From Squalus acanthias (Eukaryota): a DNA stretch of 64,000 nt. Positions 30,001 to 35,232 of the stretch are shown here, in pieces; the first letter of the stretch is position 1, and the number at the start of each line of letters is the position of its first letter. The position numbers and the translations under genes were made by a program. The stretch covers positions 121,024,001 through 121,088,000 of the forward strand of contig CM059426.1 in assembly GCA_030390025.1 (NCBI GenBank), written 5' to 3'. The notes under the pieces are model-generated. The model worked only from the letters and a program-made list of their open reading frames with translations, did no database searches and had not been told where the DNA came from.

Positions 30001-35232
<5,232 letters not shown>

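What the first reader, a model, noticed from the sequence alone, without database searches (positions are those of the whole stretch)
30560..30574. RACK1 lacks three residues of the STSS loop, the poxvirus-kinase target
Seen: exon 7 is 102 nt with normal splice sites and reads [10 protein letters not shown], giving a 314-aa protein. Known: vertebrate RACK1 is 317 aa and nearly invariant, and human reads QEVISTSSKAEPP. This surface loop (S276-T277-S278-S279) is phosphorylated by the poxvirus B1 kinase to bias ribosomes toward viral poly(A)-leader mRNAs, mimicking acidic plant loops. Inference: a clean in-frame 9-nt deletion leaving one serine could change ribosome behaviour or remove a site viruses exploit. 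I do not know whether this has been described.
Basis: partly seen in the sequence, partly recalled or inferred. Interest (0 to 1): 0.72.

Follow-up and report, generated by a model that had tools for sequence, protein, structure and literature searches.

The report
Second shark RACK1 with shortened loop
The three-residue loop deletion is real, but it lies in a second, spliced and intact copy of the ribosomal scaffold gene RACK1 that likely dates from the early vertebrate genome duplications; the normal copy with the full loop is also present, so this is likely a tolerated loop shortening in a spare ribosomal protein, not loss of the poxvirus target.

Summary
In detail: exon 7 is 102 nt and gives a 314-aa protein lacking three loop residues. 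It is not an assembly error: gap-free contigs carry it in another sample and in three related organisms. The interpretation needs changing. This is a second RACK1 gene; a canonical 317-aa STSS copy lies on contig C3. The window copy is spliced and polyadenylated, keeps the RDK ribosome-binding motif and shows strong purifying selection. Its flanks (SEC31A, LIN54) and those of C3 and C23 fit a whole-genome-duplication block. A Heptranchias 'RACK1-like' protein is identical at 314 of 314 residues but keeps the loop as STNS. So the deletion is the only protein difference, and S278 was probably already absent. An unnamed invertebrate-like RACK1 has the same short loop and folds normally. Intron 4 holds a clear SNORD143-type snoRNA, the only copy found in this genome. 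Human SNORD143 lies next to SEC31A in a non-coding host, which suggests that THAP9-AS1 is this gene's remnant. Poxvirus escape is unlikely; a specialised ribosome is untested.

The parts
30563..30568 (-). Deletion junction: Ser codon (30568-30566) joined to Lys codon (30565-30563); 9 nt missing relative to the C3 copy. Which serine survives cannot be told (6 of 26 trial placements give the same peptide); codon 278 is removed or broken in all of them.
30515..30616 (-). RACK1 paralogue exon 7, 102 nt (111 nt in the C3 copy)
35124..35232 (-). Coding part of exon 1 (109 nt), in a CpG island
34279..34450 (-). Exon 2 (172 nt); keeps D37-K38 of the RDK motif; carries H57, M59, Y60
33568..33715 (-). 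Exon 3 (148 nt); carries E96, C97, Q100
33123..33218 (-). Exon 4 (96 nt)
32287..32397 (-). Exon 5 (111 nt)
31306..31446 (-). Exon 6 (141 nt)
30001..30066 (-). Coding part of exon 8 with the stop codon
29885..29909 (-). AATAAA signal (29909-29904) and poly(A) site near 29885
   Evidence: poly(T) loose ends at 29885 in X6 and X10
35296..35307 (-). Oligopyrimidine (TOP-like) tract at the likely transcription start; the C3 copy has a similar tract
   Evidence: the role is inferred from known ribosomal-protein promoters
32607..32682 (-). Intron-4 C/D snoRNA of the SNORD143/144 type; 8-bp terminal stem; 14-nt guide pairing with this genome's 28S rRNA
31113..31190 (-). Intron-6 C/D snoRNA candidate, SNORD95-like (Rfam 25.3 bits, below the cut-off of 55); D-box guide pairs with 28S over 12 nt
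32828..32994 (-). Candidate poison cassette exon in intron 4 (167 nt, in-frame stop); its donor is joined to exon 5 in one RNA contig
   Evidence: (joint 32395-32826 in X6)
52428..52629 (-). Last coding exon of the upstream neighbour LIN54 (this exon named by eye; an earlier exon in L018 matches PDB 5fd3 at 46 of 46)
8501..9000 (-). CpG island with a donor site at 8780/8779, likely the promoter and non-coding exon 1 of the downstream neighbour SEC31A (inferred; coding exons start just outside the window)

Best explanation
The window gene is a second, intact, spliced RACK1 that likely arose in the early vertebrate genome duplications, and its 9-nt deletion is likely a tolerated shortening of the flexible knob loop, with the protein predicted to fold normally and likely still to bind ribosomes. 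Steps: (1) shown: two RACK1 genes, canonical on C3 and short-loop on C2. (2) Shown: their flanks form a three-way paralogous block with C23; inferred: whole-genome duplication. (3) Shown: all seven introns are spliced and the RNA is polyadenylated; amino-acid change is far below synonymous change; inferred: the protein is made and needed, for dosage or a tissue-biased role, and the transcript also supplies a SNORD143-type snoRNA. (4) Shown: the Heptranchias orthologue keeps the loop as STNS; inferred: one 9-nt loss in the Ser/Thr codon run, likely by replication slippage, after that split. (5) Predicted: the loss trims a low-confidence coil from 14 to 11 residues and leaves all strands in place; any effect on the 40S head would be small because no charge is added. 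(6) Inferred: in the line to mammals this copy lost its coding role, while its transcript survived as the snoRNA host THAP9-AS1.
For: Two loci only. Window copy vs C3 copy: 284 of 314 aa and 739 of 942 nt identical, pS 0.735 (saturated), dN 0.055. Neighbours of the window copy: LIN54 and SEC31A. Neighbours of the C3 copy: NDK-domain gene 10 kb away, WNT8 and a RhoGAP gene; three ray-finned-fish gene models fuse RACK1 with an NDK domain (P0026, P0066, P0114). The only SEC31 paralogue and the closest WNT8 paralogue lie 105 kb apart on C23. The RhoGAP gene's only other hit is on C2. Spliced and polyadenylated in X6 and X10; spliced in X17 and X23. All 4 exonic differences listed in those tables are synonymous. 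P0283 (Heptranchias, XP_067846032.1) is identical at 314 of 314 and groups with the window protein at 100/100; the C3 copy groups with bony vertebrates at 93/94. P0242 has the same short loop, falls outside the vertebrate group and folds as RACK1: pLDDT 92, TM 0.96-0.98 to the top two human RACK1 hits. In the P0283 model the loop block is the least confident internal block (pLDDT 60). snoRNA: 14-nt perfect guide to 28S (5 of 2000 shuffles); 61 of 76 identical to human ZL5/SNORD143 without gaps, counted by eye on the sequence in the PMC4053766 supplement. Human SNORD143/144 lie at the SEC31A locus on the minus strand; THAP9-AS1 is the main transcript upstream of SEC31A; the mouse lncRNA 5430416N02Rik lies beside Lin54 and Sec31a.
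Against: The protein tree does not date the duplication: a shark-only duplication (p-AU 0.19) and tetrapod RACK1 being the orthologue of the window copy (p-AU 0.185) are not rejected, and support for the C3 plus bony-vertebrate group is below the starred level (93/94, 90/92). The deletion is the only difference from Heptranchias in an otherwise unchanged protein, which is odd for a neutral change. The window copy's branch is long (0.096 vs 0.012-0.05 in the other group), and it has lost basic residues R57 and R100 (R60 is lost in both copies), so ribosome binding may be weaker. Relative-rate tests are significant with 8 of 9 bony-vertebrate references but only 1 of 10 distant ones. The window protein itself was not folded, and no protein-level or ribosome evidence exists. 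The runs are only guessed to be RNA by the tool, though splice joints and poly(A) support it. Slippage is inferred from the C3 codons; the Heptranchias DNA was not seen. LOC100499177 = THAP9-AS1 and the human gene orders at 4q21, 5q31 and 10q24 are recalled (one search found no paper linking the names).
Confidence: 0.65

Rival explanations
1. Specialised ribosome: the second RACK1 is a functionally distinct subunit, and the loop was shortened by selection to change 40S head movement, eS17/rRNA contact or kinase docking in the tissues that express it.
For: 16 diagnostic residues are shared only with Heptranchias among 288 stored RACK1-like proteins (next best 3 of 16), then no change except the loop. 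Changes cluster on strands 53-60 and 96-102 and at 234-235; 234-241 is a reported PKC-binding strand (PMC3195729). Loop charge alters 40S head swivel (PMC8451006). The same short loop arose independently in P0242.
Against: Published effects come from added negative charge, not from shortening; loop deletion is tolerated in yeast (second-hand). No tissue or protein data.
Confidence: 0.2
2. Virus escape: the deletion was selected because it removes the site that a poxvirus kinase uses to retune ribosomes.
For: Three of the four motif positions are gone; the motif is the known B1 target.
Against: The canonical STSS copy is intact in the same genome. The orthologue already lacks S278, as do 87 of 231 comparable loops. 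One serine remains and single-site phosphorylation is enough. No sign of rapid change in the rest of the protein. No poxvirus of these fish was looked for or seen.
Confidence: 0.07
3. Passenger protein: the gene is kept mainly as host of the SNORD143-type snoRNA, and the protein is off the ribosome or drifting toward loss, with the deletion an early step.
For: The only copy of this snoRNA found in the genome is here; no C/D candidate with a stem over 2 bp was found in C3 introns; a poison-exon candidate lies 145 nt upstream of the snoRNA; the mammalian locus appears to have ended as a non-coding host.
Against: 314 of 314 identity with Heptranchias, 4 of 4 listed exonic differences synonymous, and an intact RDK motif and Y52/Y228/Y246/Y302 mean the protein is under strong constraint.
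Confidence: 0.08

Closest known systems
Canonical vertebrate RACK1 (GNB2L1), 317 aa, STSS loop; here the C3 copy
   Same: Eight exons with the same phases and lengths except exon 7; 90% amino-acid identity; RDK motif and Y52, Y228, Y246, Y302 kept; TOP-like start.
   Different: Loop three residues shorter; R57H, L59M, T97C, R100Q, V151T, D234A and others; lies between LIN54 and SEC31A, not beside the NDK gene and WNT8; hosts a SNORD143-type snoRNA.
'Small ribosomal subunit protein RACK1-like', Heptranchias perlo XP_067846032.1 (P0283), an automatic annotation
   Same: 314 of 314 aligned residues identical; same clade (100/100).
   Different: Keeps the full loop as STNS (317 aa). Its genomic neighbours were not seen.
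Poxvirus-modified RACK1 (B1 kinase on S276-T277-S278-S279) and charged plant/protist loops (PMC8451006, PMC13712778; passages)
   Same: Same loop.
   Different: Those act by adding negative charge; this is a charge-neutral shortening in a second copy.
Human SNORD143/144 (ZL5/ZL6) and their host at 4q21.22 (LOC100499177; SEC31A 5' region / THAP9-AS1)
   Same: Same snoRNA (61 of 76 by eye, 23-nt identical core), same neighbour SEC31A, same strand as SEC31A.
   Different: Here the host is a complete protein-coding RACK1 gene; in human it is non-coding.
Vertebrate ribosomal-protein ohnologue pairs such as RPS27/RPS27L (PMC10313321, seen as a search listing with the start of its abstract only)
   Same: Ancient duplicate of a ribosomal protein kept under purifying selection; the same question of dosage versus distinct function.
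   Different: No second RACK1 protein of this type was found among the bony-vertebrate entries retrieved.
lncRNAs derived from genes with lost coding potential (Hezroni et al., PMC5577775)
   Same: Syntenic coding gene in one lineage, lncRNA in mammals.
   Different: This case is not in that paper's text or 4 supplements by term search; the word 'shark' does not occur in its main text.

Membership tests
RACK1/Asc1 | High sequence identity and conserved exon structure | tested here: met
   283 of 314 to the human-like Pongo sequence; eight exons matching the C3 copy
RACK1/Asc1 | Seven-bladed WD40 propeller | tested here: met
   Tested on proxies: the 314/314-identical P0283 (pLDDT 92.8) and the short-loop P0242. 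The window protein itself was not folded.
RACK1/Asc1 | R36-D37-K38 ribosome-binding motif | tested here: met
   role of R36/K38 from PMC12692388 passages
RACK1/Asc1 | [quoted passage not shown] | tested here: not met
   Three residues short; an 11-residue coil remains in the proxy model. The loop varies across the family, so membership stands.
RACK1/Asc1 | Physical association with the 40S subunit | not testable with these tools
   needs ribosome fractionation or cryo-EM
Vertebrate whole-genome-duplication ohnologue | Paralogous flanking genes on different chromosomes | tested here: met
   SEC31 on C2 and C23, WNT8 on C3 and C23, RhoGAP gene on C3 and C2; three gene pairs only
Vertebrate whole-genome-duplication ohnologue | Gene tree places the duplication before the shark/bony-fish split | tested here: inconclusive
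   The best tree agrees, but the alternatives are not rejected (p-AU 0.19, 0.185)
Pseudogene or retrocopy | Lost introns, broken frame or no transcript | tested here: not met
   Seven introns, open frame, spliced polyadenylated contigs
Poxvirus B1 target loop | S276-T277-S278-S279 motif | tested here: not met
   One serine left; the C3 copy has the full motif
Poxvirus B1 target loop | Phosphorylation of a loop residue | not testable with these tools
   needs a bench assay
SNORD143/144 C/D snoRNA | C and D boxes, terminal stem, guide for 28S U2402, likeness to ZL5 | tested here: met
   No Rfam model matched at the cut-off; the equation of the paired uridine with human U2402 rests on the shared guide sequence.
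SNORD95 (RF00189) | Score above the Rfam cut-off | tested here: not met
   25.3 bits vs 55; E 0.023 locally and E 3.3, fourth of 10, genome-wide
SNORD95 (RF00189) | Boxes, stem and D-box guide pairing with 28S | tested here: met
   (fold z -3.0); the D' guide is degenerate
lncRNA fossil of a coding gene (THAP9-AS1) | Residual RACK1 exon sequence or splice sites in the mammalian lncRNA | not testable with these tools
   no mammalian genome is held; only synteny and the shared snoRNA were checked

The most novel reading that the evidence does not exclude
Sharks keep a second class of ribosome built with a divergent RACK1 ohnologue. In this lineage the otherwise unchanged protein shed its knob loop under selection, which retunes the 40S head and blunts kinase control of the loop, viral or cellular. 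The same gene survives in mammals only as the non-coding snoRNA host THAP9-AS1.
Probability: 0.2. Interest if true: 0.82.

Novelty: new variant of a known kind. Interest (0 to 1): 0.55.

Why it matters
RACK1 is usually treated as a single, near-invariant vertebrate gene, and its loop is the best-known case of a virus retuning ribosomes. A natural, expressed second copy that exists with the loop (Heptranchias) and without it (this lineage), and is otherwise identical, is a ready-made pair for asking what the loop does and whether ribosomal-protein paralogues specialise. The locus also offers an origin for the human lncRNA THAP9-AS1 and for the position of SNORD143/144. I found no paper on a second cartilaginous-fish RACK1, the short loop or the THAP9-AS1 link (searches), but the library lacks most subscription papers, and three primary loop papers were not held. 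An earlier AI note in this scan made the paralogue and THAP9-AS1 suggestion for another genome.

Tried and rejected
Assembly error: rejected; runs X1-X4 may be the assembly's source and were not used. Alternative splice site: rejected, the gap is mid-exon and both joints are canonical. Sole RACK1: rejected. Rfam at gathering thresholds found nothing in the window or the C3 locus. The exon-2 homologue search was swamped by long bacterial WD40 proteins and found no shark paralogue among the 120 of 3597 hits listed. The exon-7 searches (120 of 153 listed; 10 of 10) found no short loop; the orthologue and P0242 appeared only as cluster members, so other shark copies may be hidden in clusters (40 of 654 members read and 15 listed for the largest). 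A second cluster look-up added none. The EGR family search gave 2 hits, uninformative for synteny. A Pfam scan of 70 of 137 long window ORFs gave only transposon domains and one weak pilin hit. No RACK1 or snoRNA remnant was found in 100 kb around the SEC31 paralogue on C23. Two of five clade tests did not finish (window copy with P0242). The tool listed no holder on record as RNA; contig depth was not used to rank the two copies. Organism C has no cover over exons 6-8, which shows nothing. Jha 2017, Rollins 2019 and Coyle 2009 were not held and are cited second-hand. Unsearched supplements (2 files of PMC4914119, 3 of PMC4053766) and the ohnologue database behind PMC13450315 (1 supplement searched, no hit) could bear on novelty.

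Full report
1. The observation. Exon 7 of a RACK1-like gene lies at 30616-30515 on the minus strand, is 102 nt and reads ...[10 protein letters not shown].... The eight exons give an open frame of 314 aa; the first attempt had two exon borders off by one. Solved vertebrate RACK1 chains have three extra residues here. The gap is mid-exon, so splicing cannot explain it. A DNA contig of another sample of organism A covers the site without gaps. Contigs of organisms D, E and F span exon 7 without an insertion. These organisms differ from the window by about 10 letters in 380, so they are close relatives. Organism B probably carries the deletion; organism C gives no cover. Of 282 stored proteins that align across the loop (370 examined), one other is three residues short.

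2. It is a second copy. The genome has a second exon 7 of 111 nt on C3, and a longer query finds only these two loci. The C3 gene encodes 317 aa with STSS and matches the human-like Pongo sequence at 302 of 317; the window gene matches at 283 of 314. The two copies share 284 of 314 residues. Synonymous sites are saturated (pS 0.735) and dN is 0.055, so the ratio of about 0.02 is rough but far below 1. Contigs from runs guessed to be RNA join all seven introns and end in poly(A) at 29885 in organisms A and B; spliced contigs also occur in D and F. All four exonic differences listed in those tables are synonymous (one search showed only 40 of 112 rows). The gene is alive.

3. Origin. The window copy lies between LIN54 (exon identical to PDB 5fd3 at 46 of 46) and SEC31A (best hit PDB 7sul), all on the minus strand. 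The C3 copy lies next to an NDK-domain gene, WNT8 and a RhoGAP gene; I read these as NME5, WNT8A and FAM13B from recall. Three ray-finned-fish gene models fuse RACK1 with an NDK domain, which fits the same neighbourhood. The only SEC31 paralogue and the nearest WNT8 paralogue sit 105 kb apart on C23, and the RhoGAP gene's only other hit is on C2. That three-way pattern is what genome duplication leaves. The protein tree puts C3 with Chiloscyllium, Rhinoraja and bony vertebrates (93/94) and the window copy outside. It does not reject a shark-only duplication or orthology of tetrapod RACK1 to the window copy (p-AU 0.19 and 0.185). That the organism is a cartilaginous fish is inferred from these relatives.

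4. Age and nature of the deletion. A cluster look-up returned a Heptranchias 'RACK1-like' protein, P0283. It is identical at 314 of 314 residues but has the loop STNS. So the deletion is younger than the paralogue and is the only protein change since that split, whose age I did not measure. S278 was probably already an asparagine, as in 87 of 231 comparable loops. In the C3 copy the loop is a run of similar Ser/Thr codons, and 6 of 26 trial placements give the window peptide; slippage is a likely but inferred cause. An unnamed, invertebrate-like protein, P0242, has the same short loop and lies outside the vertebrate group, so the change has probably arisen twice.

5. Structure. I did not fold the window protein itself. 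The P0283 model has a 14-residue coil (272-285) whose block has pLDDT 60, the lowest internal value. The P0242 model has an 11-residue coil, keeps the flanking strands and superposes on human RACK1 at about 1 Å. R36-D37-K38, Y52, Y228, Y246 and Y302 are kept; R57 and R100 are lost in the window copy, and R60 and S146 in both copies. Whether the lost arginines touch rRNA could not be tested.

6. What the literature says about the loop (passages only). It is variable and not required for ribosome binding (PMC8451006; PMC9120242; PMC3195729). Poxvirus B1 phosphorylates one residue of STSS at a time, S278 or S276, and the effect comes from negative charge (PMC13712778; PMC12692388). A charge-neutral shortening in a second copy, with one serine left and the canonical copy intact, does not remove the target from the organism.

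7. The snoRNAs and the mammalian locus. Intron 4 holds a C/D snoRNA with an 8-bp stem and a 14-nt perfect guide to this genome's 28S rRNA (5 of 2000 shuffles). It is the only match in G000. By eye it matches human ZL5/SNORD143 at 61 of 76 positions without gaps (PMC4053766, passages and supplement hits), whose host is given as LOC100499177 and target as 28S U2402. PMC4914119 (supplement hits), PMC11773364 and PMC5027482 (passages) place SNORD143/144 at SEC31A or confirm the target. PMC12642736 (passages) finds that the transcript upstream of SEC31A is mainly THAP9-AS1; PMC6707351 (passages) places that lncRNA at 4q21.22; PMC7066321 (passage) names Lin54 and Sec31a as neighbours of a mouse lncRNA. 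The simplest reading is that the mammalian lncRNA descends from this RACK1 copy; I put that at about 0.75. Intron 6 holds a SNORD95-like candidate below the Rfam cut-off. Since human RACK1 hosts SNORD95 (recalled), it remains possible that tetrapod RACK1 moved out of this locus and left the host behind.

8. Novelty. The orthologue is in databases as an automatic annotation. No paper on a second cartilaginous-fish RACK1, on this short loop or on the THAP9-AS1 link came up. One search gave 1 unrelated listing; none of the 20 of 161 listings shown held GNB2L1; two searches gave 0; some searches gave listings on other topics; PMC5577775 text and 4 supplements had no such link; 1 supplement of PMC13450315 had no hit. 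After I had formed this reading, the scan's own notes showed the same paralogue idea for another genome; these are unchecked AI notes and add no independent support. The loop deletion, its absence in Heptranchias and the convergent P0242 were not in the notes shown.

9. Verdict. The deletion is real. The best reading is a tolerated shortening of a flexible loop in a conserved, expressed RACK1 ohnologue (0.65). A specialised ribosome is the live alternative (0.2); a passenger protein (0.08) and virus escape (0.07) are unlikely. Novelty: new variant of a known kind. Interest 0.55, mainly for the natural with-loop/without-loop pair and the likely origin of a human lncRNA.

Noticed in passing
window 32994-32828 (-): A 167-nt cassette-like exon with strong splice sites and an in-frame stop, 145 nt upstream of the snoRNA. 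Its donor is joined to exon 5 in one X6 contig (depth 60 vs 2092 for the main joint). The upstream joint was not seen.
   Followed up: partly
window 35295-35233 (-): An in-frame upstream ATG right after the TOP-like tract could add 21 residues; a contig of organism C has CTG there (loose end), so it is probably not conserved.
   Followed up: partly
L004 (C3 RACK1) and P0243, P0250: The canonical cartilaginous-fish copies share S146C, loss of R60, N51S and I129V; S146, the reported dimerisation phosphosite, is absent from both copies in this genome.
   Followed up: no
P0330 (Callorhinchus, 236-aa isoform): It falls outside the C3 plus bony-vertebrate group and joins the window copy with support of only 64/0; it may be the chimaera's copy of this paralogue. 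Its loop exon is missing from the model.
   Followed up: partly
L006:9349-9450 (-), upstream of the C3 RACK1: A thymosin-beta exon (Pfam PF01290) lies between RACK1 and the RhoGAP gene.
   Followed up: no
G000:C26:683781-683993: A second match to the NDK-like query (51% identity), possibly another paralogue of the gene next to the C3 RACK1.
   Followed up: no
window 23191-23894, 56195-57008, 58167-59627: DDE_Tnp_4 transposase fragments and LINE endonuclease/RT pieces; no THAP9-type P-element domain among the 70 ORFs scanned.
   Followed up: no
G000:C38 (L057-L059): An rDNA array; the unit examined has its large-subunit gene in pieces, with about 3 kb between two matches.
   Followed up: no
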